Part shown: positions 1 to 58,239 of the stretch, in pieces
Position numbering within the stretch: the stretch's first letter is position 1
Layout: every line of letters begins with the position of its first letter
Assembly: GCF_009914755.1 (NCBI RefSeq)
Contig: NC_060926.1
From: the human T2T-CHM13v2.0 reference genome, Homo sapiens
DNA length: 64,000 nucleotides
Direction: 5' to 3' (one strand)
The notes under the pieces: generated by a model
The model's input: only the letters and a program-made list of their open reading frames with translations
What the model was told of the DNA's origin: nothing
Database searches by the model: none
Translations under genes and position numbers: made by a program

Positions 1-3000
1 GGTGGCTTGGCTGGCTTGGCTGGCTTGGTGGCTTGGCTTGCTTGGCTGGCTGGGAGGCTTGGCTGGCTTGGCTGGCTGGGAGGCTTGGCTGGCTGGGTGG
101 CTGGCTGGCTTGGCTGGCTTGGGTGGCTGGCTGCCTGGCTGGCTGATGGGCTTGGCTGGCTTGGCTGGCTGGGTGGCTTGGCTGGCTGGGTGGCTTGGCT
201 GGTTTGGCTAGCTGGCTGGCTGGGTAGCTTGGCTAGCCGGCTGGCTTGGCTGGTTGGCTGGCTTGGCTGGCTTGGCTAGCCGGCTGGCTTAGTTGGCTGG
301 ATGGCTTGGCTGGCATGCCTGGCTTGGCTGGCTGGCTGGCGTGGCTGGCTTGGCTGCCTGGCTGGCTTGGCTGACATGCCTGGCTTTGCTTGCTGGCTGG
401 CTTGGCTGGCTTGGCTGCCTGCCTGGCTTGGCTGCCTGGCTGGCTTGGCTAGCATGCCTGTCTTGGCTGGTTGGCGGGTTTGGCTGGCTTGGCTGTCTGG
501 GCTGGCTGACTGGCTTGGCTGGCTTGGATGTTCGGGTGACTTGGCTGGCTTGAGTGGCTGAGAGGATTGCCTAGCTTGGCTGGCCGGCTGGCTTGGCAGG
601 CTGGCTGTCTTGGCTGGCTTGGCTCGCTGGCTGGCTGGCTGGCTGGCTGGCGGGCCTGGCTGGCTAGGTGGCTTGGCTGGCTTGGCTGGCTGGGTGGCTT
701 GGCTGGTTTTGCTGGCTGGGAGGCTTGGCTGGCTTGGCTGGCTGGCTGGCTGACTGACTTGGCTGGCTTGGCTGGCTTGGCTGGCTGGCTTGGATGGCCG
801 GGTGGCTTGTCTGGCTTGGCTGGCTAGCTGGCTTAGCCGGGGGGATGGCTTGGCTGGCATGCCTGGCTTGGCTGGCTGGCTGGTTTTTCTGGCTTGGCTG
901 CCTAGCTGGCTTGGCTGGCCTGCCTGGCTTTGCTTGCTGCCTGGCTTGGCTGGCTTGGCTGCCTGGCTGGCTTGGCTGGCATGCCTGTCTTGGCTGGCTG
1001 GCGGGCTTGACTGGCTTGGCTGGCTTGGCTGCCTGGCTGGCTTGGCTGGCTTGGCTAGCTGGCTGGCTGGCTGGCGGGCCTGGCTGGCTAGGTGGCTTGG
1101 CTGGCTTGGCTGGCTGGGTGGCTTGGCTGGCTTGGCTGGGTGGGAGGCTTGGCTGGCTTGGCTGTCTGGGAGGCTTGGCTGGCTGGGTGGCTGGGTGGCT
1201 GGCTGGCTTGGCTGGCTTGGCTGGCTTGGGTGGCTGGCTGCCTGGCTGGCTGATGGGCTTGGCTGGCTTGGCTTGCTGGGTGGCTTGGCTGGCTGGGTGG
1301 CTTGGCTGGTTTGGCTAGCAGGCTGGCTGGGTAGCTTGGCTAGCTGGCTGGCTTGGCTGGTTGGCTGGCTTGGCTGGCTTGGCTAGCCGGCTGGCTTAGT
1401 TGGCTGGATGGCTTGGCTGGCATGCCTGGCTTGGCTGGCTGGCTGGCTTGGCTGCCTAGCTGGCTTGGCTGACATGCCTGGCTTTGCTTGCTGGCTGGCT
1501 TGGCTGGCTTGGCTGCCTGGCTGGCTTGGCTGCCTGGCTGGCTTGGCTAGCATGCCTGTCTTGGCTGGTTGGCGGGCTTGGCTGGCTTGGCTGGCTTGGC
1601 TGGCTTGGCTGTCTGGGCTGGCTGACTGGCTTGGCTGGCTTGGATGGTCGGGTGACTTGGCTGGCTTGAGTGGCTCAGTGGATTGCCTAGCTTGGCTGGC
1701 CGGCTGGCTTGGCAGGCTGGCTGGCTTGGGTGGCTTGGCTCGCTGGCTGGCTGGCTGGTGGGCCTGGCTGGCTAAGTGGCTTGGCTGGCTGGGCTGGCTG
1801 GGTGGCTTGGTTGGTTTTGCTGGCTGGGAGGCTTGGCTGTCTTGGCTGGCTGGCTGGCTGACTGACTTGGCTGGCTTGGCTGGCTTGGCTGGCTTGGCTG
1901 GCTGGCTTGGATGGCCGGGTGGCTTGTCTGGCTTGGCTGGCCAGCTGGCTTAGCCGGCTGGATGGCTTGGCTGGCATGCCTGGCTTGGCTGGCTGGCTGG
2001 TTTTGCTGGCTTGGCTGCCTAGCTGGCTTGGCTGGCCTGCCTGGCTTTGCTTGCTGCCTGGCTTGGCTGGCTTGGCTGCCTGGCTGGCTTGGCTGGCATG
2101 CCTGTCTTGGCTGGCTGGCGGGCTTGACTGGCTTGGCTGGCTTGGCTGCCTGGCTGGCTTGGCTGGCTTGGCTAGCTGGCTGGCTGGCTGGCGGGCCTGG
2201 CTGGCTAGGTGGCTTGGCTGGCTTGGCTGGCTGGGTGGCTTGGCTGGCTTGGCTGGCTGTGAGGCTTGGCTGGCTTGGCTGGCTGGGAGGCTTCGCTGGC
2301 TGGGTGGCTGGCTGGCTTGGCTGGCTTGGCTGGCTTGGGTGGCTGGCTGCCTGGCTGGCTGATGGGCTTGGCTGGCTTGGCTGGCTGGGTGGCTTGGCTG
2401 GCTGGGTGGCTTGGCTGGTTTGGCTAGCTGGCTGGCTGGGTAGCTTGGCTAGCTGGCTGGCTTGGCTGGTTGGCTGGCTTGGCTGGCTTGGCTAGCCGGC
2501 TGGCTTAGTTGGCTGGATGGCTTGGCTGGCATGCCTGGCTTGGCTGGCTGGCTGGCTTGGCTGGCTTGGCTGCCTGGCTGGCTTGGCTGACATGCCTGGC
2601 TTTGCTTGCTGGCTGGCTTGGCTGGCTTGGCTGCCTGGCTGGCTTGGCTAGCATGCCTGTCTTGGCTGGTTGGCGGGCTTGGCTGGCTTGGCTGGCTTGG
2701 CTGGCTTGGCTGTCTGGGCTGGCTGATTGGCTTGGCTGGCTTGGATGGTCGGGTGACTTGGCTGGCTTGAGTGGCTGAGTGGATTGCCTAGCTTGGCTGG
2801 CCGGCTGGCTTGGCAGGCTGGCTGGCTTGGCTGGCTTGGCTCGCTGGCTGGCTGGCTGGCTGGCTGGCGGGCCTGGCTGGCTAGGTGGCTTGGCTGGCTT
2901 GGCTGGCTGGGTGGCTTGGCTGGTTTTGCTGGCTGTGAGGCTTGGCTGGCTTGGCTGGCTGGCTGGCTGACTGACTTGGCTGGCTTGGCTGGCTTGGCTG

Positions 3001-6000
3001 GCTGGCTTGGATGGCCGGGTGGCTTGTCTGGTTTGGCTGGCCAGCTGGCTTAGCCGGCTGGATGGCTTGGCTGGCATGCCTGGCTTGGCTGGCTGGCTGG
3101 TTTTGCTGGCTTGGCTGCCTGGCTGGCTTGGCTGGCCTGCCTGGCTTTGCTTGCTGCCTGGCTTGGCTGGCTTGGCTGCCTGGCTGGCTTGGCTGGCATG
3201 CCTGTCTTGGCTGGCTGGCGGGCTTGACTGGCTTGGCTGGCTTGGCTGCCTGGCTGGCTTGGCTGGCTTGGCTACCTGGCTGGCTGGCTGACTGGCGGGC
3301 CTGGCTGGCTAGGTGGCTTGGCTGGCTTGGCTGGCTGGGTGGCTTGGCTGGCTTGGCTGGCAGGGAGGCTTGGCTGGCTTGGCTGTCTGGGAGGCTTGGC
3401 TGGCTGGGTGGCTGGCTGGCTTGGCTGGCTTGGCTGGCTTGGCTGGCTTGGGTGGCTGGCTGCCTGGCTGGCTGATTGGCTTGGCTGGCTTGGCTGGCTG
3501 GGTGGCTTGGCTGGCTGGGTGGCTTGGCTGGTTTGGCTAGCTGGCTGGCTGGGTAGCTTGGCTAGCTGGCTGGCTTGGCTGGTTGGCTGGCTTGGCTGGC
3601 TTGGCTAGCCGGCTGGCTTAGTTGGCTGGATGGCTTGGCTGGCATGTCTGGCTTGGCTGGCTGGCTGGCTTGGCTGGCTTGGCTGCCTGGCTGGCTTGGC
3701 TAGCATGCCTGTCTTGGCTGGTTGGCGGGCTTGGCTGGCTTGGCTGCCTTGGCTGGCTTGGCTGTCTGGGCTGGCTGACTGGCTTGGCTGGCTTGGATGG
3801 TCGGGTGACTTGGCTGGCTTGAGTGGCTGAGTGGATTGCCTAGCTTGGCTGGCCGGCTGGCTTGGCAGGCTGGCTGGCTTGGCTGGCTTGGCTCGCTGGC
3901 TGGCTGGCTGGCTGGCTGGCGGGCCTGGCTGGCTAGGTGGCTTGGCTGGCTTGGCTGGCTGGGTGGCTTGGCTGGTTTTGCTGGCTGTGAGGCTTGGCTG
4001 GCTTGGCTGGCTGGCTGGCTGACTGACTTGGCTGGCTTGGCTGGCTTGGCTGGCTGGCTTGGATGGCCGGGTGGCTTGTCTGGCTAGGCTGGCCAGCTGG
4101 CTTAGCCGGCTGGATGGCTTGGCTGGCATGCCTGGCTTGGCTGGCTGGCTGGTTTTGCTGGCTTGGCTGCCGGGCTGGCTTAGCTGGCCTGCCTGGCTTT
4201 GCTTGCTGTCTGGCTTGGCTGGCTTGGCTGCCTGGCTGGCTTGGCTGGCATGCCTGTCTTGGCTGGCTGGCGGGCTTGACTGGCTTGGCTGGCTTGGCTG
4301 CCTGGCTGGCTTGGCTGGCTTGGCTAGCTGGCTGGCTGGCTGGCGGGCCTGGCTGGCTAGGTGGCTTGGCTGGCTTGGCTGGCTGGGTGGCTTGGCTGGC
4401 TTGGCTGGCTGGGAGGCTTGGCTGGCTTGGCTGTCTGGGAGGCTTGGCTGGCTGGGTGGCTGGCTGGCTTGGCTGGCTTGGCTGGCTTGGCTGGCTTGGG
4501 TGGCTGGCTGCCTGGCTGGCTGATTGGCTTGGCTGGCTTGGCTGGCTGGGTGGCTTGGCTGGCTGGGTGGCTTGGCTGGTTTGGCTAGCTGGCTGGCTGG
4601 GTAGCTTGGCTAGCTGGCTGGCTTGGCTGGTTGGCTGCCTTGGCTGGCTTGGCTAGCCGGCTGGCTTAGTTGGCTGGATGGCTTGGCTGGCATGCCTGGC
4701 TTGGCTGGCTGGCTGGCTTGGCTGGCTTGGCTGCCTGGCTGGCTTGGCTGACATGCCTGGCTTTGCTTGCTGGCTGGCTTGGCTGGCTTGGCTGCCTGGC
4801 TGGCTTGGCTAGCATGCCTGTCTTGGCTGGTTGGCGGGCTTGGCTGGCTTGGCTGGCTTGGCTGGCTTGGCTGTCTGGGCTGGCTGACTGGCTTGGCTGG
4901 CTTGGATGGTCGGGTGACTTGGCTGGCTTGAGTGGCTGAGTGGATTGCCTAGCTTGGCTGGCCGGCTGGCTTGGCAGGCTGGCTGGCTTGGCTGGCTTGG
5001 CTCGCTGGCTGGCTGGCTGGCGGGCCTGGCTGGCTAGGTGGCTTGGCTGGCTTGGCTGGCTGGGTGGCTTGGCTGGTTTTGCTGGCTGGGAGGCTTGGCT
5101 GTCTTGGCTGGCTGGCTGGCTGACTGACTTGGCTGGCTTGGCTGGCTTGGCTGGCTTGGCTGGCTGGCTTGGATGGCCGGGTGGCTTGTCTGGCTTGGCT
5201 GGCCAGCTGGCTTAGCCGGCTGGATGGCTTGGCTGGCATGCCTGGCTTGGCTGGCTGGCTGGTTTTGCTGGCTTGGCTGCCTAGCTGGCTTGGCTGGCCT
5301 GCCTGGCTTTGCTTGCTGCCTGGCTTGGCTGGCTTGGCTGCCTGGCTGGCTTGGCTGGCATGCCTGTCTTGGCTGGCGGGCGGGCTTGACTGGCTTGGCT
5401 GGCTTGGCTGCCTGGCTGGCTTGGCTGGCTTGGCTAGCTGGCTGGCTGGCTGGCGGGCCTGGCTGGCTAGGTGGCTTGGCTGGCTTGGCTGGCTGGGTGG
5501 CTTGGCTGGTTTTGCTGGCTGGGAGGCTTGGCTGGCTTGGCTGGCTGGCTGGTTGACTGACTTGGCTGGCTTGGCTGGCTTGGCTGGCTGGCTTGGATGG
5601 CCGGGTGGCTTGTCTGGCTTGGCTGGCCAGCTGGCTTAGCCGGCTGGATGGCTTGGCTGGCATGCCTGGCTTGGCTGGGTGGCTGGTTTTGCTGGCTTGG
5701 CTGCCTGGCTGGCTTGGCTGGCCTGCCTGGCTTTGCTTGCTGCCTGGTTTGGCTGGCTTGGCTGCCTGGCTGGCTTGGCTGGCATGCCTGTCTTGGCTGG
5801 CTGGCGGGCTTGACTGGCTTGGCTGGCTTGGCTGCCTGGCTGGCTTGGCTGGCTTGGCTAGCTGGCTGGCTGGCTGGCGGGCCTGGCTGGCTAGGTGGCT
5901 TGGCTGGCTTGGCTGGCTGGGAGGATTGGCTGGCTTGGCTGGCTGGGAGGCTTGGCTGGCTTGGCTGGCTGGGTGGCTTGGCTGGCTTGGCTGGCTGGGA

Positions 6001-9000
6001 GGCTTCGCTGGCTTGGCTGTCTGGGAGGCTTGGCTGGCTGGGTGGCTGGCTGGCTTGGCTGGCTTGGCTGGCTTGGTTGGCTTGGGTGGCTGGCTGCCTG
6101 GCTGGCTGATTGGCTTGGCTGGCTTGGCTGGCTGGGTGTCTTGGCTGGCTGGGTGGCTTGGCTGGTTTGGCTAGCTTGCTGGCTGGGTAGCTTGGCTAGC
6201 TGGCTGGCTTGGCTGGTTGGCTGGCTTGGCTGGCTTGGCTAGCCGGCTGGCTTAGTTGGCTGGATGGCTTGGCTGGCATGCCTGGCTTGGCTGGCTGGCT
6301 GGCTTGGCTGGCTTGGCTGCCTGGCTGGCTTGGCTGACATGCCTGGCTTTGCTTGCTGGCTGGCTTGGCTGGCTTGGCTGCCTGGCTGGCTTGGCTAGCA
6401 TGCCTGTCTTGGCTGGTTGGCGGGCTTGACTGGCTTGGCTGGCTTGGCTGGCTTGGCTGTCTGGGCTGGCTGACTGGCTTGGCTGGCTTGGACGGTCGGG
6501 TGACTTGGCTGGCTTGAGTGGCTGAGTGGATTGCCTAGCTTGGCTGGCCGGCTGGCTTGGCAGGCTGGCTGGCTTGGCTGGCTTGGCTCGCTGGCTGGCT
6601 GGTTGGCAGGCCTGGCTGGCTAGGTGGCTTGGCTGGCTTGGCTGGCTGGGTGGCTTGGATGGTTTTGCTGGCTGGGAGGCTTGGCTGGCTTGGCTGGCTG
6701 GCTGGTTGACTGACTTGGCTGGCTTGGCTGGCTTGGCTGGCTTGGCTGGCTGGCTTGGATGGCCGGGTGGCTTGTCTGGCTTGGCTGGCCAGCTGGCTTA
6801 GCCGGCTGGATGGCTTGGCTGGCATGCCTGGCTTGGCTGGCTGGCTGGTTTTTCTGGCTTGGCTGTCTAGCTGGCTTGGCTGGCCTGCCTGGCTTTGCTT
6901 GCTGCCTGGCTTGGCTGGCTTGGCTGCCTGGCTAGCTTGGCTGGCATGCCTGTCTTGGCTGGCTGGCGGGCTTGACTGGCTTGGCTGGCTTGGCTGCCTG
7001 GCTGGCTTGGCTGGCTTGGCTAGCTGGCTGGCTGGGTGGCGGGCCTGGCTGGCTAGGTGGCTTGGCTGGCTTGGCTGGCTTGGTGGCTTGGCTTGCTTGG
7101 CTGGCTGGGAGGCTTGGCTGGCTTGGCTGGCTGGGAGGCTTGGCTGGCTGGGTGGCTGGCTGGCTTGGCTGGCTTGGGTGGCTGGCTGCCTGGCTGGCTG
7201 ATGGGCTTGGCTGGCTTGGCTGGCTGGGTGGCTTGGCTGGCTGGGTGGCTTGGCTGGTTTGGCTAGCTGGCTGGCTGGGTAGCTTGGCTAGCCGGCTGGC
7301 TTGGCTGGTTGGCTGGCTTGGCTGGCTTGGCTAGCCGGCTGGCTTAGTTGGCTGGATGGCTTGGCTGGCATGCCTGGCTTGGCTGGCTGGCTGGCGTGGC
7401 TGGCTTGGCTGCCTGGCTGGCTTGGCTGACATGCCTGGCTTTGCTTGCTGGCTGGCTTGGCTGGCTTGGCTGCCTGCCTGGCTTGGCTGCCTGGCTGGCT
7501 TGGCTAGCATGCCTGTCTTGGCTGGTTGGCGGGCTTGGCTGGCTTGGCTGTCTGGGCTGGCTGACTGGCTTGGCTGGCTTGGATGTTCGGGTGACTTGGC
7601 TGGCTTGAGTGGCTGAGAGGATTGCCTAGCTTGGCTGGCCGGCTGGCTTGGCAGGCTGGCTGTCTTGGCTGGCTTGGCTCGCTGGCTGGCTGGCTGGCTG
7701 GCTGGCGGGCCTGGCTGGCTAGGTGGCTTGGCTGGCTTGGCTGGCTGGGTGGCTTGGCTGGTTTTGCTGGCTGGGAGGCTTGGCTGGCTTGGCTGGCTGG
7801 CTGGCTGACTGACTTGGCTGGCTTGGCTGGCTTGGCTGGCTGGCTTGGATGGCCGGGTGGCTTGTCTGGCTTGGCTGGCTAGCTGGCTTAGCCGGGGGGA
7901 TGGCTTGGCTGGCATGCCTGGCTTGGCTGGCTGGCTGGTTTTTCTGGCTTGGCTGCCTAGCTGGCTTGGCTGGCCTGCCTGGCTTTGCTTGCTGCCTGGC
8001 TTGGCTGGCTTGGCTGCCTGGCTGGCTTGGCTGGCATGCCTGTCTTGGCTGGCTGGCGGGCTTGACTGGCTTGGCTGGCTTGGCTGCCTGGCTGGCTTGG
8101 CTGGCTTGGCTAGCTGGCTGGCTGGCTGGCGGGCCTGGCTGGCTAGGTGGCTTGGCTGGCTTGGCTGGCTGGGTGGCTTGGCTGGCTTGGCTGGGTGGGA
8201 GGCTTGGCTGGCTTGGCTGTCTGGGAGGCTTGGCTGGCTGGGTGGCTGGGTGGCTGGCTGGCTTGGCTGGCTTGGCTGGCTTGGGTGGCTGGCTGCCTGG
8301 CTGGCTGATGGGCTTGGCTGGCTTGGCTTGCTGGGTGGCTTGGCTGGCTGGGTGGCTTGGCTGGTTTGGCTAGCAGGCTGGCTGGGTAGCTTGGCTAGCT
8401 GGCTGGCTTGGCTGGTTGGCTGGCTTGGCTGGCTTGGCTAGCCGGCTGGCTTAGTTGGCTGGATGGCTTGGCTGGCATGCCTGGCTTGGCTGGCTGGCTG
8501 GCTTGGCTGCCTAGCTGGCTTGGCTGACATGCCTGGCTTTGCTTGCTGGCTGGCTTGGCTGGCTTGGCTGCCTGGCTGGCTTGGCTGCCTGGCTGGCTTG
8601 GCTAGCATGCCTGTCTTGGCTGGTTGGCGGGCTTGGCTGGCTTGGCTGGCTTGGCTGGCTTGGCTGTCTGGGCTGGCTGACTGGCTTGGCTGGCTTGGAT
8701 GGTCGGGTGACTTGGCTGGCTTGAGTGGCTCAGTGGATTGCCTAGCTTGGCTGGCCGGCTGGCTTGGCAGGCTGGCTGGCTTGGGTGGCTTGGCTCGCTG
8801 GCTGGCTGGCTGGTGGGCCTGGCTGGCTAAGTGGCTTGGCTGGCTGGGCTGGCTGGGTGGCTTGGTTGGTTTTGCTGGCTGGGAGGCTTGGCTGTCTTGG
8901 CTGGCTGGCTGGCTGACTGACTTGGCTGGCTTGGCTGGCTTGGCTGGCTTGGCTGGCTGGCTTGGATGGCCGGGTGGCTTGTCTGGCTTGGCTGGCCAGC

Positions 9001-12000: not shown

Positions 12001-13650
12001 TGCCTAGCTTGGCTGGCCGGCTGGCTTGGCAGGCTGGCTGGCTTGGCTGGCTTGGCTCGCTGGCTGGCTGGCTGGCGGGCCTGGCTGGCTAGGTGGCTTG
12101 GCTGGCTTGGCTGGCTGGGTGGCTTGGCTGGTTTTGCTGGCTGGGAGGCTTGGCTGTCTTGGCTGGCTGGCTGGCTGACTGACTTGGCTGGCTTGGCTGG
12201 CTTGGCTGGCTTGGCTGGCTGGCTTGGATGGCCGGGTGGCTTGTCTGGCTTGGCTGGCCAGCTGGCTTAGCCGGCTGGATGGCTTGGCTGGCATGCCTGG
12301 CTTGGCTGGCTGGCTGGTTTTGCTGGCTTGGCTGCCTAGCTGGCTTGGCTGGCCTGCCTGGCTTTGCTTGCTGCCTGGCTTGGCTGGCTTGGCTGCCTGG
12401 CTGGCTTGGCTGGCATGCCTGTCTTGGCTGGCGGGCGGGCTTGACTGGCTTGGCTGGCTTGGCTGCCTGGCTGGCTTGGCTGGCTTGGCTAGCTGGCTGG
12501 CTGGCTGGCGGGCCTGGCTGGCTAGGTGGCTTGGCTGGCTTGGCTGGCTGGGTGGCTTGGCTGGTTTTGCTGGCTGGGAGGCTTGGCTGGCTTGGCTGGC
12601 TGGCTGGTTGACTGACTTGGCTGGCTTGGCTGGCTTGGCTGGCTGGCTTGGATGGCCGGGTGGCTTGTCTGGCTTGGCTGGCCAGCTGGCTTAGCCGGCT
12701 GGATGGCTTGGCTGGCATGCCTGGCTTGGCTGGGTGGCTGGTTTTGCTGGCTTGGCTGCCTGGCTGGCTTGGCTGGCCTGCCTGGCTTTGCTTGCTGCCT
12801 GGTTTGGCTGGCTTGGCTGCCTGGCTGGCTTGGCTGGCATGCCTGTCTTGGCTGGCTGGCGGGCTTGACTGGCTTGGCTGGCTTGGCTGCCTGGCTGGCT
12901 TGGCTGGCTTGGCTAGCTGGCTGGCTGGCTGGCGGGCCTGGCTGGCTAGGTGGCTTGGCTGGCTTGGCTGGCTGGGAGGATTGGCTGGCTTGGCTGGCTG
13001 GGAGGCTTGGCTGGCTTGGCTGGCTGGGTGGCTTGGCTGGCTTGGCTGGCTGGGAGGCTTCGCTGGCTTGGCTGTCTGGGAGGCTTGGCTGGCTGGGTGG
13101 CTGGCTGGCTTGGCTGGCTTGGCTGGCTTGGTTGGCTTGGGTGGCTGGCTGCCTGGCTGGCTGATTGGCTTGGCTGGCTTGGCTGGCTGGGTGTCTTGGC
13201 TGGCTGGGTGGCTTGGCTGGTTTGGCTAGCTTGCTGGCTGGGTAGCTTGGCTAGCTGGCTGGCTTGGCTGGTTGGCTGGCTTGGCTGGCTTGGCTAGCCG
13301 GCTGGCTTAGTTGGCTGGATGGCTTGGCTGGCATGCCTGGCTTGGCTGGCTGGCTGGCTTGGCTGGCTTGGCTGCCTGGCTGGCTTGGCTGACATGCCTG
13401 GCTTTGCTTGCTGGCTGGCTTGGCTGGCTTGGCTGCCTGGCTGGCTTGGCTAGCATGCCTGTCTTGGCTGGTTGGCGGGCTTGACTGGCTTGGCTGGCTT
13501 GGCTGGCTTGGCTGTCTGGGCTGGCTGACTGGCTTGGCTGGCTTGGACGGTCGGGTGACTTGGCTGGCTTGAGTGGCTGAGTGGATTGCCTAGCTTGGCT
13601 GGCCGGCTGGCTTGGCAGGCTGGCTGGCTTGGCTGGCTTGGCTCGCTGGC
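1..13650. repeat. 7,055-bp internal tandem duplication within the HOR (also at ~23454-37100)
   Basis: ORFs repeat at +7,055 (790>7845, 3007>10062, 5593>12648). Distinguishing bases noticed: 479 T vs 7534 C; 4209 T vs 11264 C. Confidence 0.93.
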
Positions 13651-44400: not shown

Positions 44401-47400
44401 CTGGCTTGGCTGGCTGGGTGGCTTGGCTGGCTGGGTGGCTTGGCTGGTTTGGCTAGCTGGCTGGCTGGGTAGCTTGGCTAGCCGGCTGGCTTGGCTGGTT
44501 GGCTGGCTTGGCTGGCTTGGCTAGCCGGCTGGCTTAGTTGGCTGGATGGCTTGGCTGGCATGCCTGGCTTGGCTGGCTGGCTGGCGTGGCTGGCTTGGCT
44601 GCCTGGCTGGCTTGGCTGACATGCCTGGCTTTGCTTGCTGGCTGGCTTGGCTGGCTTGGCTGCCTGCCTGGCTTGGCTGCCTGGCTGGCTTGGCTAGCAT
44701 GCCTGTCTTGGCTGGTTGGCGGGCTTGGCTGGCTTGGCTGGCTTGGCTGGCTTGGCTGTCTGGGCTGGCTGACTGGCTTGGCTGGCTTGGATGTTCGGGT
44801 GACTTGGCTGGCTTGAGTGGCTGAGAGGATTGCCTAGCTTGGCTGGCCGGCTGGCTTGGCAGGCTGGCTGGCTTGGCTGGCTTGGCTCGCTGGCTGGCTG
44901 GCTGGCTGGCTGGCGGGCCTGGCTGGCTAGGTGGCTTGGCTGGCTTGGCTGGCTGGGTGGCTTGGCTGGTTTTGCTGGCTGGGAGGCTTGGCTGGCTTGG
45001 CTGGCTGGCTGGCTGACTGACTTGGCTGGCTTGGCTGGCTTGGCTGGCTGGCTTGGATGGCCGGGTGGCTTGTCTGGCTTGGCTGGCCAGCTGGCTTAGC
45101 CGCCTGGATGGCTTGGCTGGCATGCCTGGCTTGGCTGGCTGGCTGGTTTTGCTGGCTTGGCTGCCTGGCTGGCTTGGCTGGCCTGCCTGGCTTTGCTTGC
45201 TGCCTGGCTTGGCTGGCTTGGCTGCCTGGCTGGCTTGGCTGGCATGCCTGTCTTGGCTGGCTGGCGGGCTTGACTGGCTTGGCTGGCTTGGCTGCCTGGC
45301 TGGCTTGGCTGGCTTGGCTAGCTGGCTGGCTGGCTGGCGGGCCTGGCTGGCTAGGTGGCTTGGCTGGCTTGGCTGGCTGGGTGGCTTGTCTGGCTTGGCT
45401 GGCTGTGAGGCTTGGCTGGCTTGGCTGGCTGGGAGGCTTCGCTGGCTGGGTGGCTGGCTGGCTTGGCTGGCTTGGCTGGCTTGGGTGGCTGGCTGCCTGG
45501 CTGGCTGATGGGCTTGGCTGGCTTGGCTGGCTGGGTGGCTTGGCTGGCTGGGTGGCTTGGCTGGTTTGGCTAGCTGGCTGGCTGGGTAGCTTGGCTAGCT
45601 GGCTGGCTTGGCTGGTTGGCTGGCTTGGCTGGCTTGGCTAGCCGGCTGGCTTAGTTGGCTGGATGGCTTGGCTGGCATGCCTGGCTTGGCTGGCGTGGCT
45701 GGCTTGGCTGCCTAGCTGGCTTGGCTGACATGCCTGGCTTTGCTTGCTGGCTGGCTTGGCTGGCTTGGCTGCCTGGCTGGCTTGGCTGTCTGGCTGGCTT
45801 GGCTAGCATGCCTGTCTTGGCTGGTTGGCGGGCTTGGCTGGCTTGGCTGGCTTGGCTGGCTTGGCTGTCTGGGCTGGCTGACTGGCTTGGCTGGCTTGGA
45901 TGGTCGGGTGACTTGGCTGGCTTGAGTGGCTCAGTGGATTGCCTAGCTTGGCTGGCCGGCTGGCTTGGCAGGCTGGCTGGCTTGGCTGGCTGGGTGGCTT
46001 GGCTGGTTTTGCTGGCTGGGAGGCTTGGCTGGCTTGGCTGGCTGGCTGGTTGACTGACTTGGCTGGCTTGGCTGGCTTGGCTGGCTTGGCTGGCTGGCTT
46101 GGATGGCCGGGTGGCTTGTCTGGCTTGGCTGGCCAGCTGGCTTAGCCGGCTGGATGGCTTGGCTGGCATGCCTGGCTTGGCTGGCTGGCTGGTTTTGCTG
46201 GCTTGGCTGCCTAGCTGGCTTGGCTGGCCTGCCTGGCTTTGCTTGCTGCCTGGCTTGGCTGGCTTGGCTGCCTGGCTGGCTTGGCTGGCATGCCTGTCTT
46301 GGCTGGCTGGCGGGCTTGACTGGCTTGGCTGGCTTGGCTGCCTGGCTGGCTTGGCTGGCTTGGCTAGCTGGCTGGCTGGCTGGCGGGCCTGGCTGGCTAG
46401 GTGGCTTGGCTGGCTTGGCTGGCTGGGTGGCTTGGCTTGCTTGGCTGGCTGGGAGGCTTGGCTGGCTTGGCTGGCTGGGAGGCTTGGCTGGCTGGGTGGC
46501 TGGCTGGCTTGCCTGGCTTTGCTGGCTTGGCTGGCTTGGGTGGCTGGCTGCCTGGCTGGCTGATGGGCTTGGCTGGCTTGGCTGGCTGGGTGGCTTGGCT
46601 GGTTTGGCTAGCTGGCTGGCTGGGTAGCTTGGCTAGCCGGCTGGCTTGGCTGGTTGGCTGGCTTGGCTGGCTTGGCTGGCTTGGCTGTCTGGGCTGGCTG
46701 ACTGGCTTGGCTGGCTTGGATGTTCGGGTGACTTGGCTGGCTTGAGTGGCTGAGTGGATTGCCTAGCTTGGCTGGCCGGCTGGCTTGGCAGGCTGGCTGG
46801 CTTGGCTGGCTTGGCTCGCTGGCTGGCTGGCTGGCTGGCTGGCGGGCCTGGCTGGCTAGGTGGCTTGGCTGGCTTGGCTGGCTGGGTGGCTTGGCTGGTT
46901 TTGCTGGCTGGGAGGCTTGGCTGGCTTGGCTGGCTGGCTGGCTGACTGACTTGGCTGGCTTGGCTGGCTTGGCTGGCTGGCTTGGATGGCCGGGTGGCTT
47001 GTCTGGCTTGGCTGGCCAGCTGGCTTAGCCGGGGGGATGGCTTGGCTGGCATGCCTGGCTTGGCTGGCTGGCTGGTTTTTCTGGCTTGGCTGCCTAGCTG
47101 GCTTGGCTGGCCTGCCTGGCTTTGCTTGCTGCCTGGCTTGGCTGGCTTGGCTGCCTGGCTGGCTTGGCTGGCATGCCTGTCTTGGCTGCCTGGCGGGCTT
47201 GACTGGCTTGGCTGGCTTGGCTGCCTGGCTGGCTTGGCTGGCTTGGCTGGCTAGGTGGCTTGGCTGGTTTGGCTAGCTGGCTGGCTGGGTAGCTTGGCTA
47301 GCCGGCTGGCTTGGCTGGTTGGCTGGCTTGGCTGGCTTGGCTAGCCGGCTGGCTTAGTTGGCTGGATGGCTTGGCTGGCATGCCTGGCTTGGCTGGCTGG

Positions 47401-50400
47401 CTGGCGTGGCTGGCTTGGCTGCCTGGCTGGCTTGGCTGACATGCCTGGCTTTGCTTGCTGGCTGGCTTGGCTGGCTTGGCTGCCTGCCTGGCTTGGCTGC
47501 CTGGCTGGCTTGGCTAGCATGCCTGTCTTGGCTGGTTGGCGGGCTTGGCTGGCTTGGCTGGCTTGGCTGGCTTGGCTGTCTGGGCTGGCTGACTGGCTTG
47601 GCTGGCTTGGATGTTCGGGTGACTTGGCTGGCTTCAGTGGCTGAGAGGATTGCCTAGCTTGGCTGGCCGGCTGGCTTGGCAGGCTGGCTGGCTTGGCTGG
47701 CTTGGCTCGCTGGCTGGCTGGCTGGCTGGCTGGCGGGCCTGGCTGGCTAGGTGGCTTGGCTGGCTTGGCTGGCTGGGTGGCTTGGCTGGTTTTGCTGGCT
47801 GGGAGGCTTGGCTGGCTTGGCTGGCTGGCTGGCTGACTGACTTGGCTGGCTTGGCTGGCTTGGCTGGCTGGCTTGGATGGCCGGGTGGCTTGTCTGGCTT
47901 GGCTGGCCAGCTGGCTTAGCCGCCTGGATGGCTTGGCTGGCATGCCTGGCTTGGCTGGCTGGCTGGTTTTTCTGGCTTGGCTGCCTAGCTGGCTTGGCTG
48001 GCCTGCCTGGCTTTGCTTGCTGCCTGGCTTGGCTGGCTTGGCTGCCTGGCTGGCTTGGCTTGCATGCCTGTCTTGGCTGGCTGGCGGGCTTGACTGGCTT
48101 GGCTGGCTTGGCTGCCTGGCTGGCTTGGCTGGCTTGGCTAGCTGGCTGGCTGGCTGGCGGGCCTGGCTGGCTAGGTGGCTTGGCTGGCTTGGCTGGCTGG
48201 GTGGCTTGGCTGGCTTGGCTGGCTGGGAGGCTTGGCTGGCTTGGCTGGCTGGGAGGCTTGGCTGGCTGGGTGGCTGGCTGGCTTGGCTGGCTTGGCTGGC
48301 TTGGGTGGCTGGCTGCCTGGCTGGCTGATGGGCTTGGCTGGCTTGGCTGGCTGGGTGGCTTGGCTGGCTGGGTGGCTTGGCTGGTTTGGCTAGCTGGCTG
48401 GCTGGGTAGCTTGGCTAGCTGGCTGGCTTGGCTGGTTGGCTGGCTTGGCTGGCTTGGCTAGCCGGCTGGCTTAGTTGGCTGGATGGCTTGGCTGGCATGC
48501 CTGGCTTGGCTGGCTGGCTGGCTTGGCTGCCTAGCTGGCTTGGCTCACATGCCTGGCTTTGCTTGCTGGCTGGCTTGGCTGGCTTGGCTGCCTGGCTGGC
48601 TTGGCTGTCTGGCTGGCTTGGCTACCATGCCTGTCTTGGCTGGTTGGCGGGCTTGGCTGGCTTGGCTGGCTTGGCTGGCTTGGCTGTCTGGGCTGGCTGA
48701 CTGGCTTGGCTGGCTTGGATGGTCGGGTGACTTGGCTGGCTTGAGTGGCTCAGTGGATTGCCTAGCTTGGCTGGCCGGCTGGCTTGGCAGGCTGGCTGGC
48801 TTGGCTGGCTTGGCTCGCTGGCTGGCTGGCTGGCGGGCCTGGCTGGCTAAGTGGCTTGGCTGGCTTGGCTGGCTGGGTGGCTTGGCTGGTTTTGCAGGCT
48901 GTGAGGCTTGGCTGGCTTGGCTGGCTGGCTGGCTGACTGACTTGGCTGGCTTGGCTGGCTTGGCTGGCTGGCTTGGATGGCCCGGTGGCTTGTCTGGCTT
49001 GGCTGGCCAGCTGGCTTAGCCGGCTGGATGGCTTGGCTGGCATGCCTGGCTTGGCTGGCTGGCTGGTTTTTCTGGCTTGGCTGCCTAGCTGGCTTGGCTG
49101 GCCTGCCTGGCTTTGCTTGCTGCCTGGCTTGGCTGGCTTGGCTGCCTGGCTGGCTTGGCTGGCATGCCTGTCTTGGCTGGCTGGCGGGCTTGACTGGCTT
49201 GACTGGCTTGGCTGCCTGGCTGGCTTGGCTGGCTTGGCTAGCTGGCTGGCTGGCTGGCGGGCCTGGCTGGCTAGGTGGCTTGGCTGGCTTGGCTGGCTGG
49301 GTGGCTTGGCTGGCTTGGCTGGCTGGGAGGCTTGGCTGGCTTGGCTGGCTGGGAGGCTTGGCTGGCTGGGTGGCTGGCTGGCTTGGCTGGCTTGGCTGGC
49401 TTGGCTGGCTTGGGTGGCTGGCTGCCTGGCTGGCTGATTGGCTTGGCCGGCTTGGCTGGCTGGGTGGCTTGGCTGGCTGGGTGGCTTGGCTGGTTTGGCT
49501 AGCTTGCTGGCTGGGTAGCTTGGCTAGCTGGCTGGCTTGGCTGGTTGGCTGGCTTGGCTGGCTTGGCTAGCCGGCTGGCTTAGTTGGCTGGATGGCTTGG
49601 CTGGCATGCCTGGCTTGGCTGGCTGGCTGGCTTGGCTGGCTTGGCTGCCTGGCTGGCTTGGCTGACATGCCTGGCTTTGCTTGCTGGCTGGCTTGGCTGG
49701 CTTGGCTGCCTGGCTGGCTTGGCTGCCTGGCTGGCTTGGCTAGCATTCCTGTCTTGGCTGGTTGGCGGGCTTGGCTGGCTTGGCTGGCTTGGCTGGCTTG
49801 GCTGTCTGGGCTGGCTGACTGGCTTGGTTGGCTTGGATGGTCGGGTGACTTGGCTGGCTTGAGTGGCTGAGTGGATTGCCTAGCTTGGCTGGCCGGCTGG
49901 CTTGGCAGGCTGGCTGGCTTGGCTGGCTTGGCTGGCTGGCTGGCTGGTTGGCAGGCCTGGCTGGCTAGGTGGCTTGGCTGGCTTGGCTGGCTGGGTGGCT
50001 TGGATGGTTTTGCTGGCTGGGAGGCTTGGCTGGCTTGGCTGGCTGGCTGGTTGACTGACTTGGCTGGCTTGGCTGGCTTGGCTGGCTTGGCTGGCTGGCT
50101 TGGATGGCCGGGTGGCTTGTCTGGCTTGGCTGGCCAGCTGGCTTAGCCGGCTGGATGGCTTGGCTGGCATGCCTGGCTTGGCTGGCTGGCTGGTTTTGCT
50201 GGCTTGGCTGCCTAGCTGGCTTGGCTGGCCTGCCTGGCTTTGCTTGCTGCCTGGCTTGGCTGGCTTGGCTGCCTGGCTGGCTTGGCTGGCATGCCTGTCT
50301 TGGCTGGCTGGCGGGCTTGACTGGCTTGGCTGGCTTGGCTGCCTGGCTGGCTTGGCTGGCTTGGCTAGCTGGCTGGCTGGGTGGCGGGCCTGGCTGGCTA
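23454..50400. repeat. Higher-order repeat copy B (26,947 bp = 23,453 + 3,494)
   Basis: Offset to copy A is +23,453 up to ~38.9 kb and +26,947 afterwards (15709>42656, 18106>45053, 23153>50100). Confidence 0.95.
35160..42147. repeat. 3,494-bp tandem duplication unique to HOR copy B
   Basis: ORFs repeat at +3,494 (35448>38942, 36101>39595, 37263>40757, 38102>41596). The block is single in the equivalent part of copy A. Confidence 0.93.
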
Positions 50401-52656
50401 GGTGGCTTGGCTGGCTTGGCTGGCTTGGTGGCTTGGCTTGCTTGGCTGGCTGGGAGGCTTGGCTGGCTTGGCTGGCTGGGAGGCTTGGCTGGCTGGGTGG
50501 CTGGCTGGCTTGGCTGGCTTGGGTGGCTGGCTGCCTGGCTGGCTGATGGGCTTGGCTGGCTTGGCTGGCTGGGTGGCTTGGCTGGCTGGGTGGCTTGGCT
50601 GGTTTGGCTAGCTGGCTGGCTGGGTAGCTTGGCTAGCCGGCTGGCTTGGCTGGTTGGCTGGCTTGGCTGGCTTGGCTAGCCGGCTGGCTTAGTTGGCTGG
50701 ATGGCTTGGCTGGCATGCCTGGCTTGGCTGGCTGGCTGGCGTGGCTGGCTTGGCTGCCTGGCTGGCTTGGCTGACATGCCTGGCTTTGCTTGCTGGCTGG
50801 CTTGGCTGGCTTGGCTGCCTGCCTGGCTTGGCTGCCTGGCTGGCTTGGCTAGCATGCCTGTCTTGGCTGGTTGGCGGGTTTGGCTGGCTTGGCTGTCTGG
50901 GCTGGCTGACTGGCTTGGCTGGCTTGGATGTTCGGGTGACTTGGCTGGCTTGAGTGGCTGAGAGGATTGCCTAGCTTGGCTGGCCGGCTGGCTTGGCAGG
51001 CTGGCTGTCTTGGCTGGCTTGGCTCGCTGGCTGGCTGGCTGGCTGGCTGGCGGGCCTGGCTGGCTAGGTGGCTTGGCTGGCTTGGCTGGCTGGGTGGCTT
51101 GGCTGGTTTTGCTGGCTGGGAGGCTTGGCTGGCTTGGCTGGCTGGCTGGCTGACTGACTTGGCTGGCTTGGCTGGCTTGGCTGGCTGGCTTGGATGGCCG
51201 GGTGGCTTGTCTGGCTTGGCTGGCTAGCTGGCTTAGCCGGGGGGATGGCTTGGCTGGCATGCCTGGCTTGGCTGGCTGGCTGGTTTTTCTGGCTTGGCTG
51301 CCTAGCTGGCTTGGCTGGCCTGCCTGGCTTTGCTTGCTGCCTGGCTTGGCTGGCTTGGCTGCCTGGCTGGCTTGGCTGGCATGCCTGTCTTGGCTGGCTG
51401 GCGGGCTTGACTGGCTTGGCTGGCTTGGCTGCCTGGCTGGCTTGGCTGGCTTGGCTAGCTGGCTGGCTGGCTGGCGGGCCTGGCTGGCTAGGTGGCTTGG
51501 CTGGCTTGGCTGGCTGGGTGGCTTGGCTGGCTTGGCTGGGTGGGAGGCTTGGCTGGCTTGGCTGTCTGGGAGGCTTGGCTGGCTGGGTGGCTGGGTGGCT
51601 GGCTGGCTTGGCTGGCTTGGCTGGCTTGGGTGGCTGGCTGCCTGGCTGGCTGATGGGCTTGGCTGGCTTGGCTTGCTGGGTGGCTTGGCTGGCTGGGTGG
51701 CTTGGCTGGTTTGGCTAGCAGGCTGGCTGGGTAGCTTGGCTAGCTGGCTGGCTTGGCTGGTTGGCTGGCTTGGCTGGCTTGGCTAGCCGGCTGGCTTAGT
51801 TGGCTGGATGGCTTGGCTGGCATGCCTGGCTTGGCTGGCTGGCTGGCTTGGCTGCCTAGCTGGCTTGGCTGACATGCCTGGCTTTGCTTGCTGGCTGGCT
51901 TGGCTGGCTTGGCTGCCTGGCTGGCTTGGCTGCCTGGCTGGCTTGGCTAGCATGCCTGTCTTGGCTGGTTGGCGGGCTTGGCTGGCTTGGCTGGCTTGGC
52001 TGGCTTGGCTGTCTGGGCTGGCTGACTGGCTTGGCTGGCTTGGATGGTCGGGTGACTTGGCTGGCTTGAGTGGCTCAGTGGATTGCCTAGCTTGGCTGGC
52101 CGGCTGGCTTGGCAGGCTGGCTGGCTTGGGTGGCTTGGCTCGCTGGCTGGCTGGCTGGTGGGCCTGGCTGGCTAAGTGGCTTGGCTGGCTGGGCTGGCTG
52201 GGTGGCTTGGTTGGTTTTGCTGGCTGGGAGGCTTGGCTGTCTTGGCTGGCTGGCTGGCTGACTGACTTGGCTGGCTTGGCTGGCTTGGCTGGCTTGGCTG
52301 GCTGGCTTGGATGGCCGGGTGGCTTGTCTGGCTTGGCTGGCCAGCTGGCTTAGCCGGCTGGATGGCTTGGCTGGCATGCCTGGCTTGGCTGGCTGGCTGG
52401 TTTTGCTGGCTTGGCTGCCTAGCTGGCTTGGCTGGCCTGCCTGGCTTTGCTTGCTGCCTGGCTTGGCTGGCTTGGCTGCCTGGCTGGCTTGGCTGGCATG
52501 CCTGTCTTGGCTGGCTGGCGGGCTTGACTGGCTTGGCTGGCTTGGCTGCCTGGCTGGCTTGGCTGGCTTGGCTAGCTGGCTGGCTGGCTGGCGGGCCTGG
52601 CTGGCTAGGTGGCTTGGCTGGCTTGGCTGGCTGGGTGGCTTGGCTGGCTTGGCTGG
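50401..52656. repeat. Partial HOR copy C
   Basis: Line 50401 onward reproduces line 1 onward (offset 50,400) until a difference at 52657 (ggttgggagg vs ggctgtgagg at 2257). Confidence 0.93.

Positions 52657-56580: not shown

Positions 56581-58239
<1,659 letters not shown>

What the first reader, a model, noticed from the sequence alone, without database searches (positions are those of the whole stretch)
1..52656. A simple-repeat-looking satellite with nested higher-order structure up to 23-27 kb
Seen: GGCT/GGCTT > 9-mer > ~550-bp halves > ~1.1-kb monomers > 7,055 / 23,453 / 26,947-bp periods, and 23,453 + 26,947 = 50,400 returns exactly to the start sequence. Known: HOR organisation is typical of alpha satellite, whereas repeat annotators would probably label this only as a (CAGC)n-type simple repeat. 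Inference: this is an actively homogenised, HOR-organised satellite that I cannot assign to alpha, beta, gamma or HSat1-3. Whether it is already catalogued cannot be determined here.
Basis: partly seen in the sequence, partly recalled or inferred. Interest (0 to 1): 0.8.

Follow-up and report, generated by a model that had tools for sequence, protein, structure and literature searches.

The report
GGCT-rich satellite with recent block duplications
A 79-kb G/T-rich satellite between the two halves of the human kappa antibody locus has real 1.1-kb repeat units, and its striking 7-27 kb "periods" come from a few very recent block duplications; it is a tidy example of how satellites grow, not a new kind of element.

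Summary
Window 1-52,793 is a (GGCT/GGCTT)n-derived array with 9-, 17- and 26-bp sub-periods and ~1.1-kb monomers. Exact long periods are 7,055, 23,453 and 26,947 bp, and 50,400 bp returns to the start.

The array is larger than reported: window -23,832 to 54,777, about 78.6 kb. All long periods reduce to three tandem duplications of 7,055, 23,453 and 3,494 bp. For example, 26,947 = 23,453 + 3,494. Each level has only 2-3 copies, and larger blocks are younger: 5 mismatches in 29.6 kb at lag 23,453, against 9 in 7.2 kb at lag 7,055.

An inverted sister array lies about 190 kb upstream. Its flanks differ from ours by about 0.3%, but its block periods are different (5,109 and 6,812 bp). The higher-order structure therefore formed after that inverted duplication.

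Related arrays with their own periods lie on chr1q21, elsewhere on chr2p11, and as short relics on chr22q11. It is not alpha, beta, gamma or HSat1-3.

A 2024 paper already lists (GGCT)n/(AGCC)n clusters on chr2 labelled "censat". Verdict: a real, ordinary satellite of modest interest.

The parts
1..52793 (+). Monomer- and block-structured part of the G/T-rich satellite that lies within the window. The array continues left of the window to about -23,832.
   Evidence: Composition of the main array is A 0.033, C 0.227, G 0.437, T 0.303, with CpG o/e 0.098.
1..23453 (+). One full 23,453-bp period in the window's register. In anchor register it reads X X Y, where X = 7,055 bp (6 anchor segments) and Y = 9,343 bp (8 segments).
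   Evidence: One search gives the anchor barcode. One search gives 5 mismatches and no indel over 29.6 kb at lag 23,453 (-14,000..15,599).
1..14110 (+). Two tandem copies of the 7,055-bp sub-unit, each made of five ~1.1-kb monomers plus one 1,586-bp segment.
   Evidence: lag 7,055 gives 9 mismatches in 7.2 kb (-600..6,599). Searches agree.
23454..50400 (+). Second full period in the window. It is lengthened to 26,947 bp by an internal 3,494-bp tandem duplication.
   Evidence: Lag 26,947 gives 2 mismatches in 13.8 kb (11,800..25,599).
35059..42046 (+). The 3,494-bp tandem duplication: 35,059-38,552 is repeated as 38,553-42,046. In anchor segments it is 1586 + 1068 + 840.
   Evidence: 35,059-40,237 = 38,553-43,721; 1 mismatch in 3.8 kb at lag 3,494. 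One search shows the extra segments.
50401..52793 (+). Start of a further, truncated period. It is the same as 1-2,401.
   Evidence: 99.3% identity; lag 50,400 gives 3 mismatches in 14 kb (-11,800..2,199).
52794..54777 (+). Degenerate tail of the same simple repeat, with no in-register 1.1-kb monomer. The array ends sharply at 54,777.
   Evidence: no copy at 84% or better after 52,626. (sequence); this edge is shared with the sister arm at 97%.
54778..55372 (.). AT-rich minisatellite (unit ~26 bp, ACATTAAATATAAACATATTTTAT) directly abutting the array. It marks the boundary and is not part of the satellite.
56668..62359 (.). Outer flank. It is present in inverted orientation next to the sister array at chr2:89,717,001-89,722,694.
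   Evidence: 5,704 bp at 99.26%, with 20 mismatches.

Best explanation
This is a non-coding pericentromeric-type satellite that grew in steps. A (GGCT)n/(GGCTT)n simple repeat degenerated into 9-, 17- and 26-bp sub-repeats. A ~1.1-kb stretch of that became the unit of tandem amplification, giving monomers now 1-11% apart. Unequal but in-register homologous exchange between monomers then duplicated ever larger blocks.

In this copy of the array three such events explain every long period:
- a 7,055-bp duplication (X to XX);
- a ~2.7-fold repetition of the 23,453-bp block XXY;
- one 3,494-bp duplication inside the last full block.

These events are very young and happened after the inverted duplication that placed mirror-image arrays on either side of the centre of the IGK locus. 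The sister array started from the same monomer types but was rebuilt differently.

Shown: the anatomy, the ranking of identities, the mirror-image arms and the multi-locus family. Inferred: the exchange mechanism, the absolute ages, the likely copy-number polymorphism in people, and the lack of any cellular function.
For: 1. Periods and monomers are real and far above shuffled controls.

2. The anchor-to-anchor barcode reads X0 Y | X X Y | X X Y' | X(partial):
- X = 1091, 1116, 1101, 1052, 1109, 1586 = 7,055.
- Y = 1068, 840, 2389, 1109, 820, 891, 1108, 1118 = 9,343.
- Y' is Y plus 1586, 1068, 840 = 3,494.
- The peaks at 16,398, 30,508, 26,947, 50,400, 19,892, 34,002, 43,345 and 10,549 are all sums or differences of 7,055, 23,453 and 3,494.

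3. Mismatches at fixed lags:
- 23,453: 5 in 29.6 kb.
- 26,947: 2 in 13.8 kb.
- 50,400: 3 in 14 kb.
- 3,494: 1 in 3.8 kb.
- 7,055: 9 in 7.2 kb.
By contrast, monomers within a block have a median identity of 0.937, range 0.89-1.0.

4. The sister array at chr2:89,725,000-89,763,000 is on the minus strand and is a mirror image, including the Alu interruption.
- Non-satellite sequence differs between the arms by 45 mismatches in 14,794 bp, or 0.30%.
- The sister array's periods are 5,109 and 6,812 bp, with no 7,055 or 23,453, and its barcode differs.
- One sister monomer is 99.3% identical to our 1,109-bp type.

5. Other loci of the family have their own periods: exactly 3,855 bp at chr1:143.19 Mb, and ~6.9-7.0 kb, at least 7 copies, at chr2:90.85-90.89 Mb.

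6. There is no gene or functional element in the hub's RefSeq table. CpG o/e is 0.098, and the longest stop-free + frame is 972 nt.
Against: - Only one haplotype (T2T-CHM13) could be examined, so polymorphism and recency are inferred, not seen.
- Blocks of 23 kb that differ at 5 sites in 29.6 kb are at the edge of what an assembly can resolve. The copy number could be off.
- Gene conversion between blocks would mimic recent duplication and would make the identity-based ordering of events unreliable.
- No breakpoint of an unequal exchange can be pinpointed in a tandem array, so the mechanism rests on the in-register periods alone.
- Absence of function is an argument from silence. No expression, methylation or chromatin data were available here.
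Confidence: 0.8

Rival explanations
1. One reading: a classical higher-order-repeat satellite under continuing array-wide homogenisation. On this view the 7-, 23- and 27-kb periods are stable levels of the repeat hierarchy.
For: - Units are far more alike than the monomers inside them.
- Other loci of the family carry HOR-like units in more copies: ~6.9 kb, at least 7 copies, at chr2:90.85 Mb, and 3,855 bp, at least 4 copies, at chr1:143.19 Mb.
Against: - Here each level has only 2-3 copies.
- 26,947 is 23,453 plus a one-off 3,494-bp insertion.
- The first block (X0 Y) lacks the second X, and its first ~3 kb is ~2% diverged.
- A monomer type is shared at 99.3% between arms, so monomers are not being homogenised arm by arm.
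Confidence: 0.15
2. Assembly artefact: the near-identical 23-kb blocks are an over-expansion, or a mis-joined collapse, of a shorter array in T2T-CHM13.
For: The blocks differ at only 5 of 29,600 and 2 of 13,800 positions. That is close to read error and longer than typical HiFi reads. The read length is recalled, not tested.
Against: - The blocks are not perfect copies. They carry a few fixed differences, a distinct 3,494-bp insertion and a diverged first block. Those are the markers an assembler needs.
- The mirror-image sister array was resolved as a different structure.
- No read data were available to test this directly.
Confidence: 0.04
3. A functional element of the IGK locus. The G-rich, GGCT (RGYW)-dense tract would act like a switch-region-type R-loop or AID-target sequence, or as a chromatin boundary between the proximal and distal V clusters.
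For: - The array has a strong G over C skew of 0.32 and is 43.7% G on one strand. It holds 10,972 GGCT and 4,004 TTGGC words in 72.5 kb.
- It lies near the centre of the IGK locus (hub table).
Against: - The same family sits on chr1q21, outside IGK on chr2, and on chr22. It is therefore not IGK-specific.
- There are only 444 AGCT words and no canonical G4 motif.
- Size and structure differ two-fold between the two arms, which argues against constraint.
- No transcript or functional element is listed in the hub table.
Confidence: 0.03

Closest known systems
(GGCT)n / (AGCC)n microsatellite-cluster regions of chr2 in T2T-CHM13v2.0, labelled 'censat' (PMC11477012, passages read)
   Same: Same motif, same chromosome and same assembly. 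One (GGCT)n region and two (AGCC)n regions fit one plus-strand and two large minus-strand arrays seen here. This is very probably the same object.
   Different: The paper's main text gives no coordinates, and its supplements could not be read. In the passages read, the regions are treated as microsatellite-density clusters. Monomers, block structure, the sister-arm relation and the other chromosomes are not described there.
Alpha-satellite higher-order repeats
   Same: Tandem monomers of set length, with multi-monomer units much more alike than the monomers inside them.
   Different: - Monomer of ~1.1 kb, not 171 bp.
- 66% GC, not AT-rich.
- No CENP-B box and no peak at lag 171.
- 2-3 unit copies, not hundreds.
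- Sits in a segmental-duplication zone about 2 Mb from the centromere (the position of the centromere is recalled).
HSat2/HSat3, satellites that evolved from a simple (CATTC)n repeat (Altemose et al. preprint 10.1101/2021.07.12.452052, passage read)
   Same: Same route: a short simple repeat decays and is re-amplified as longer, locus-specific units.
   Different: The motif is unrelated: GGAAT occurs 0 times and CATTC twice in the array. Total size is tens of kb per locus, not megabases.
CAGGG-type pericentromeric interspersed repeats at duplication boundaries (PMC2566985, passages read; primary papers recalled, not held)
   Same: GC-rich, degenerate short-unit repeats. They are carried between pericentromeric regions, including 2p11 and 22q11, by segmental duplication.
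   Different: The motif differs: CAGGG occurs 5 times in 72.5 kb. The passages read describe no 1.1-kb monomer or block structure for CAGGG repeats.
Composite satellites made of transposon fragments plus satellite (Hoyt et al. preprint 10.1101/2021.07.12.451456, passages read)
   Same: The related array at chr2:90.85-90.91 Mb repeats a ~6.9-kb unit. That unit is made of this satellite plus a ~2.6-kb cluster of antisense Alu fragments.
   Different: Inside the window the array contains no transposon. The Alu cluster lies once, at window -21,164..-18,429, outside the window. I found no mention of this composite in the passages read.

Membership tests
Alpha satellite | ~171-bp AT-rich monomer periodicity | tested here: not met
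   Self-identity at lag 171 is 0.318, at most 0.348 within +-4 bp, against a baseline of 0.335. AT content is 0.336.
Alpha satellite | CENP-B box (motif recalled: TTCGNNNNANNCGGG) in a share of monomers | tested here: not met
   0 matches in 64,000 bases on both strands.
HSat2 / HSat3 | Derived from (CATTC)n/(GGAAT)n | tested here: not met
   Counts in 54,777 bases: GGAAT 0, GAATG 0, CATTC 2, ATTCC 2.
Beta satellite / gamma satellite / HSat1 | Periods of ~68 bp, ~220 bp and ~42 bp respectively (values recalled) | tested here: not met
   Self-identity is 0.330 at lag 68, 0.326 at lag 220 and 0.296 at lag 42. The nearby maxima belong to the 4/9/13/17/26 series.
Higher-order-repeat satellite (generic) | Discrete tandem monomers that differ from one another | tested here: met
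   Steps are 1,052-1,118 bp, and monomers are 89-98.7% alike, median 93.7%.
Higher-order-repeat satellite (generic) | Multi-monomer unit repeated head to tail with much higher identity than between monomers | tested here: met
   Identity is 99.87% at lag 7,055 and 99.98% at lag 23,453.
Higher-order-repeat satellite (generic) | Many copies of the unit, forming a homogeneous array | tested here: not met
   There are two copies of X per block and about 2.7 copies of the 23,453-bp block. The blocks are unequal: X0 Y, XXY, XXY'.
Plain simple repeat / microsatellite | A single short unit explains the sequence, with no longer-range order | tested here: not met
   TRF fits a 9-mer at only 74% matches. 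Strong order exists at 1.1 kb and above.
CAGGG pericentromeric interspersed repeat | CAGGG-based unit | tested here: not met
   CAGGG occurs 5 times and CCCTG once in 72,531 bases.
T2T 'censat' (GGCT)n region of chr2 (PMC11477012) | Same coordinates as the published region | tested here: inconclusive
   Motif, chromosome, strand count and assembly all fit. Coordinates are only in supplements that could not be read.

The most novel reading that the evidence does not exclude
The family may be an Alu-seeded satellite caught at several stages.

Junction evidence. Both junctions between the satellite and a cluster of antisense Alu fragments fall at the same Alu position, the GCCCAGGCTGG site. The array therefore sits as if it had expanded from the GGCTGG word of one Alu.

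Stages seen. The same junction pair occurs at the following places:
- next to only ~3 kb of repeat on chr22q11 and at chr2:91.7 Mb;
- next to 38- and 79-kb arrays in the two IGK arms;
- inside a ~6.9-kb composite unit amplified about 8-9 times at chr2:90.85-90.91 Mb.

If the inverted IGK duplication is human-specific (recalled, not tested), the two arms are a dated natural experiment. The same starting array would have become 38 kb with 5.1/6.8-kb blocks on one side and 79 kb with 7/23-kb blocks on the other. The last triplication would be young enough to vary between people.
Probability: 0.2. Interest if true: 0.5.

Novelty: new member of a known kind. Interest (0 to 1): 0.3.

Why it matters
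Satellites that arise from simple repeats and then gain longer units are well known, so the kind is not new.

What this locus offers is a clean, small and datable example. Two arrays descend from one inverted duplication, with flanks 0.3% apart. They have since been rebuilt into different block structures and a two-fold size difference. The order of events can be read directly from block identities.

It also matters in practice:
- Repeat maskers see the tract as a simple repeat. NCBI masks about 60% of the window.
- It lies in the part of the IGK locus that was a gap in earlier references.
- Its near-identical 23-kb blocks are a likely source of mapping error, copy-number variation and mis-assembly in kappa-locus haplotyping.

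Tried and rejected
- Residual Alu sequence inside monomers. The local alignment score of monomer against Alu unit is 21, against 19.0 +- 3.0 for 200 shuffles. No support.
- Rfam families in 52,000-64,000: none at gathering score.
- Stop-to-stop ORFs in the right flank (48 of 70 aa or more) were listed but not pursued.
- Long open frames in the array reach 972 nt at most. They follow from the lack of A and are not taken as genes.
- Switch-region-like or G-quadruplex reading. There are 0 canonical G4 motifs, 444 AGCT and 5 Chi-like GCTGGTGG. The family is not IGK-specific. Kept only as a low-odds rival.
- A three-way MAFFT alignment of the 23-kb blocks mis-placed large gaps because of the internal X duplication. 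It was replaced by fixed-lag comparison and the anchor barcode.
- Literature searches:
  - 18-mers of the repeat are in no held paper, and the 9-mers hit only primers.
  - The IGK haplotype papers describe the gap as 'complex repeats' without naming this satellite.
  - The ape-genome and HG002 benchmark papers say nothing relevant.
  - The Hoyt and Altemose preprints do not mention it in the passages found. Their supplements are closed.
  - A search for the GCTTTTTGC / GGGCAAAAAGCCG repeat gave only primers.
  - The Science versions and the two Horvath 2p11 papers are not held.
- Earlier findings of this scan were not open.
- No non-human primate or other human assembly is reachable with these tools, so no cross-species or population test was possible.


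Full report

Yes. The window from 1 to about 54.8 kb is 66% G+C with almost no A. The main array has A 0.033, C 0.227, G 0.437 and T 0.303.

Long periods. The distances between identical 24-mers peak at 23,453 (15,511 pairs), 7,055 (14,130) and 26,947 (13,840). Lesser peaks lie at 16,398, 30,508, 3,494, 1,586, 1,109 and 50,400. When the same array is shuffled in blocks, the top long-range peak falls sharply. It is at most 63 with 26-bp blocks and at most 294 with 100-bp blocks, in 10 shuffles each.

Block matches by self-BLAST:
- 1-16,687 = 23,454-40,152 at 99.25%.
- 11,606-25,854 = 38,553-52,793 at 99.84%.
- 1-8,125 = 7,056-15,149 at 98.7%.
- 35,059-40,237 = 38,553-43,721 at 97.2%.
- 1-2,401 = 50,401-52,793 at 99.3%.

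2. SHORT AND MIDDLE SCALES

Self-identity by lag peaks at 4 (0.64), 9 (0.63), 13 (0.60), 17 (0.62) and, highest, 26 (0.66). Tandem Repeats Finder gives units of 9 (TGGCTTGGC, 74% matches), 17 and 26 bp over the whole of 1-7,100. That is why a masker treats it as a simple repeat.

The ~1.1-kb monomer is real.
- Copies of 1-1,109 in register are 84-100% identical, mostly 91-96%, at steps of 1,074-1,127 bp.
- All 1,083 alignments of 800 bp or more have a median identity of 78.6%, which is the out-of-register background.
- There is no minus-strand copy in the window.

The '~550-bp halves' are only faint. Half-register alignments reach 81-83%. The 14-mer pair density is 0.135 at lag 540, against a median of 0.079 and 0.484 at lag 1,100.

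3. TRUE EXTENT

The array does not start at base 1.
- The GGCT-rich sequence begins at about window -23,832, next to a (CTTT/CCTT)n tract.
- It is interrupted at about -21,164..-18,429 and then runs to 54,777.
- The total is about 78.6 kb, at chr2:89,938,168-90,016,777.
- The monomer- and block-structured part ends at 52,793.
- 52,794-54,777 is a degenerate tail with no in-register monomer.
- The end at 54,777 is sharp and abuts an AT-rich 26-bp minisatellite.

4. WHAT THE LONG PERIODS ARE

I cut the array at a 26-base anchor that occurs about once per monomer. This gives a barcode of segment lengths.
- X = 1091, 1116, 1101, 1052, 1109, 1586, which sums to 7,055.
- Y = 1068, 840, 2389, 1109, 820, 891, 1108, 1118, which sums to 9,343.
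- From the first anchor, at window -16,957, the array reads X0 Y | X X Y | X X Y' | X(partial).
- X0 is an older version of X: 1109, 1108, 1093, 1052, 1109, 1586.
- Y' is Y with an extra 1586, 1068, 840, which sums to 3,494.

XXY is 23,453 bp and XXY' is 26,947 bp. The other large peaks that I checked are all sums or differences of 7,055, 23,453 and 3,494:
- 16,398 = 23,453 - 7,055
- 30,508 = 23,453 + 7,055
- 50,400 = 2 x 23,453 + 3,494
- 19,892 = 26,947 - 7,055
- 34,002 = 26,947 + 7,055
- 43,345 = 50,400 - 7,055
- 10,549 = 7,055 + 3,494

Three tandem duplication steps therefore account for the whole 'hierarchy'. Each level has only 2-3 copies.

5. ORDER OF EVENTS

Comparison at fixed lags, with no gaps allowed, gives these mismatch counts:
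- lag 23,453: 5 over 29.6 kb (-14,000..15,599);
- lag 26,947: 2 over 13.8 kb;
- lag 50,400: 3 over 14 kb;
- lag 3,494: 1 over 3.8 kb;
- lag 7,055: 9 over 7.2 kb.

Monomers within a block are 89-98.7% alike, with a median of 93.7%. The first ~3-4 kb of the main array is about 2% diverged from its later counterparts.

Bigger blocks are therefore younger. At a recalled rate of roughly 0.5e-9 substitutions per site per year, and with no gene conversion, 0.017% corresponds to the order of 0.2 million years and 0.125% to about 1 million years. These ages are inference.

6. THE SISTER ARRAY

A second array lies on the minus strand at chr2:89,725,000-89,763,000, about 38 kb long. It is a mirror image of ours.
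- Its outer flank matches window 62,359->56,668 inverted, at 99.26% over 5,704 bp.
- The interruption and the small inner piece of array are mirrored too.

Non-satellite sequence differs between the arms as follows:

| Region | Length (bp) | Mismatches |
|---|---|---|
| Inner flank | 3,783 | 1 |
| Alu interruption | 2,757 | 13 |
| Outer flank, piece 1 | 5,704 | 20 |
| Outer flank, piece 2 | 2,550 | 11 |
| Total | 14,794 | 45 (0.30%) |

The midpoint between the two arrays, about 89.86 Mb, is close to the midpoint of the annotated IGK span, about 89.83 Mb from the hub table. The literature describes IGK as two large inverted segmental duplications separated by a long-unsequenced gap 'dominated by complex repeats' (passages of PMC11327106 and bioRxiv 10.1101/006866; PMC7555362). 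I did not trace the homology out to the V-gene clusters, so 'same duplication event' is likely but not shown.

Inside the arrays the arms align at only 90-95%, with many gaps. The sister's block periods are 5,109 and 6,812 bp, not 7,055 or 23,453, and its barcode is different. Even so, one sister monomer of 1,109 bp is 99.3% identical to our 1,109-bp type, and the array edges are shared. The monomer types are therefore older than the inverted duplication. The block structure is younger and specific to each arm.

7. THE FAMILY ELSEWHERE IN THE GENOME

The 26-base anchor, with up to 2 mismatches, has 225 matches in T2T-CHM13, against 0 for its reversed control. Only the first 100 places were listed. 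They lie on:
- chr1: 142.34, 143.18-143.20 and 143.96-143.98 Mb;
- chr2: 87.40, 89.73-89.76, 89.945-90.014 and 90.85-90.87 Mb.

A variant 24-mer that is absent from our two arms has 48 exact matches. All are on chr1 (the same three places) and chr2 (87.404-87.443 and 90.845-90.901 Mb). Monomer 1-1,109 aligns full-length at 80-85% to chr2:87.40 and 90.85-90.90 Mb.

Local structure differs from locus to locus:
- chr1:143.189-143.199 Mb is pure satellite with an exact 3,855-bp period.
- chr2:90.845-90.875 Mb repeats a ~6.9-7.0-kb composite of satellite plus ~2.6 kb of other sequence.

The chromosomes involved (1, 2, 22) overlap those that carry IGKV orphons according to the IMGT review (PMC7555362, passage). 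This association fits co-dispersal by segmental duplication, but it is not proof.

8. THE INTERRUPTION AND A LEAD ON ORIGIN

The 2.7-kb interruption is a tandem cluster of antisense Alu fragments.
- TRF finds periods of 222-226 bp.
- Rfam finds four minus-strand Metazoa_SRP matches below the gathering score, with E from 1.6e-6 to 7.5e-12.
- It is 97% identical to the non-satellite part of the chr2:90.85 Mb composite unit.

Both satellite/Alu junctions fall at the same place in the Alu unit, around its GCCCAGGCTGG site, at unit positions ~24-43. The satellite therefore sits as if inside one Alu.

The two 34-base junction words each occur 13 times in the genome, against 0 for controls. The places are:
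- both IGK arms;
- chr2:87.41 Mb;
- 8-9 times at chr2:90.85-90.91 Mb;
- chr2:91.70 Mb;
- chr22:17.238-17.239 Mb;
- none on chr1.

At chr22 and at chr2:91.7 Mb only ~3.3 and ~2.8 kb of the repeat follow the junction.

This fits an ancestral 'Alu cluster plus a few kb of repeat' that was dispersed and then amplified locally. It allows, but does not prove, that the repeat began as an expansion of the Alu's GGCTGG word. Against that, monomers keep no detectable Alu similarity. Microhomology-mediated capture of an Alu cluster would give similar junctions.

9. WHAT IT IS NOT

- No CENP-B box.
- No excess self-identity at lags 171, 342, 68, 220 or 42.
- No GGAAT.
- CAGGG occurs 5 times in 72.5 kb.
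- CpG is strongly depleted, at o/e 0.098. There is no canonical G-quadruplex motif. The longest stop-free plus-strand frame is 972 nt, which is expected when A is 3%.
- The hub table lists no gene or functional element in the window.

10. WHAT IS ALREADY IN PRINT

A 2024 survey of microsatellite density in T2T-CHM13v2.0 (PMC11477012) was read as passages only; its supplements were unreadable. It lists one 'HML(GGCT)n' and two 'HML(AGCC)n' peak-cluster regions, all on chromosome 2 and all with the corresponding annotation 'censat'. That matches one plus-strand and two large minus-strand arrays. The tract is therefore very probably already in the T2T CenSat track as an unnamed 'other' satellite. 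I could not check the coordinates.

I found no description of its monomers, block structure, mirror-image arms, other loci or Alu junction, in ten full-text searches and in the passages read. Several things remain unseen and could hold a name for it:
- the supplements of the T2T repeat papers;
- the Dfam/RepeatMasker tracks;
- the older 2p11 papers.

11. MECHANISM AND VERDICT

Best reading, about 0.8: a functionless satellite that grew from a simple repeat to 1.1-kb monomers. In this arm it then grew by three recent in-register unequal exchanges (7,055, 23,453 x ~2.7, and 3,494 bp), after the inverted duplication.

Rivals:
- steady-state HOR homogenisation, 0.15;
- assembly artefact, 0.04;
- a switch-like or boundary function in IGK, 0.03.

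It is a new, or at least undescribed, member of a known kind, probably already labelled 'censat'. Its main value is as a compact, datable example of satellite growth and as a warning for kappa-locus assembly and mapping.

12. LIMITS

- Only one human haplotype was available, with no reads, no apes and no epigenomic data.
- The genome-wide lists are truncated: 125 of the 225 anchor matches were not shown.

Noticed in passing
window 54,778-55,372: An AT-rich minisatellite (unit ~26 bp, ACATTAAATATAAACATATTTTAT, about 24 copies, 65-73% matches) begins at the very base where the GC-rich array ends.
   Followed up: partly
L011 8,834 to L010 1,571 (window about -21,164..-18,429, outside the window): A tandem cluster of antisense Alu fragments (period 222-226 bp) interrupts the array. 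Both junctions with the satellite map to the same Alu site. The sub-threshold Rfam matches to mir-3135 and mir-1268 there overlap the Alu (SRP-like) units.
   Followed up: yes
L013 4,065-7,005 (window about -45,900..-43,000): About 2.9 kb of a CpG-rich degenerate repeat with unit near GCCGCCGCGGCTTTTTGCCCCCC. I recall a GCTTTTTGC / GGGCAAAAAGCCG repeat described at pericentromeric duplication boundaries, but I could not confirm this in any held paper.
   Followed up: partly
L011 about 5,780-6,165 (window about -24,220..-23,835): A polypyrimidine (CTTT/CCTT/CT)n tract directly abuts the far-left end of the satellite.
   Followed up: no
L024-L026 (chr2:90,845,001-90,875,000): A composite tandem array with a unit of ~6.9-7.0 kb, made of this satellite on the minus strand plus the ~2.6-kb Alu-fragment cluster. 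The junction words recur 8-9 times between 90.849 and 90.907 Mb.
   Followed up: partly
L027 (chr1:143,189,001-143,199,000): Pure satellite of the same family with an exact 3,855-bp higher-order period. A partner array in opposite orientation lies at chr1:143.96-143.98 Mb.
   Followed up: partly
L028 (chr22:17,228,201-17,238,200) and L029 (chr2:91,706,001-91,716,000): Short relic copies of the repeat, ~3.3 kb and ~2.8 kb, sit next to the same Alu junction and show no large array.
   Followed up: partly
window 57,364-57,851, 58,398-58,915, 61,341-61,677 and 62,070-62,437: Further small tandem duplications in the right flank: a 258-bp AT-rich unit x1.9, AT-rich units of 31 and 54 bp, a 161-bp Alu-like unit x2.1, and a 193-bp unit x1.9.
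   Followed up: no
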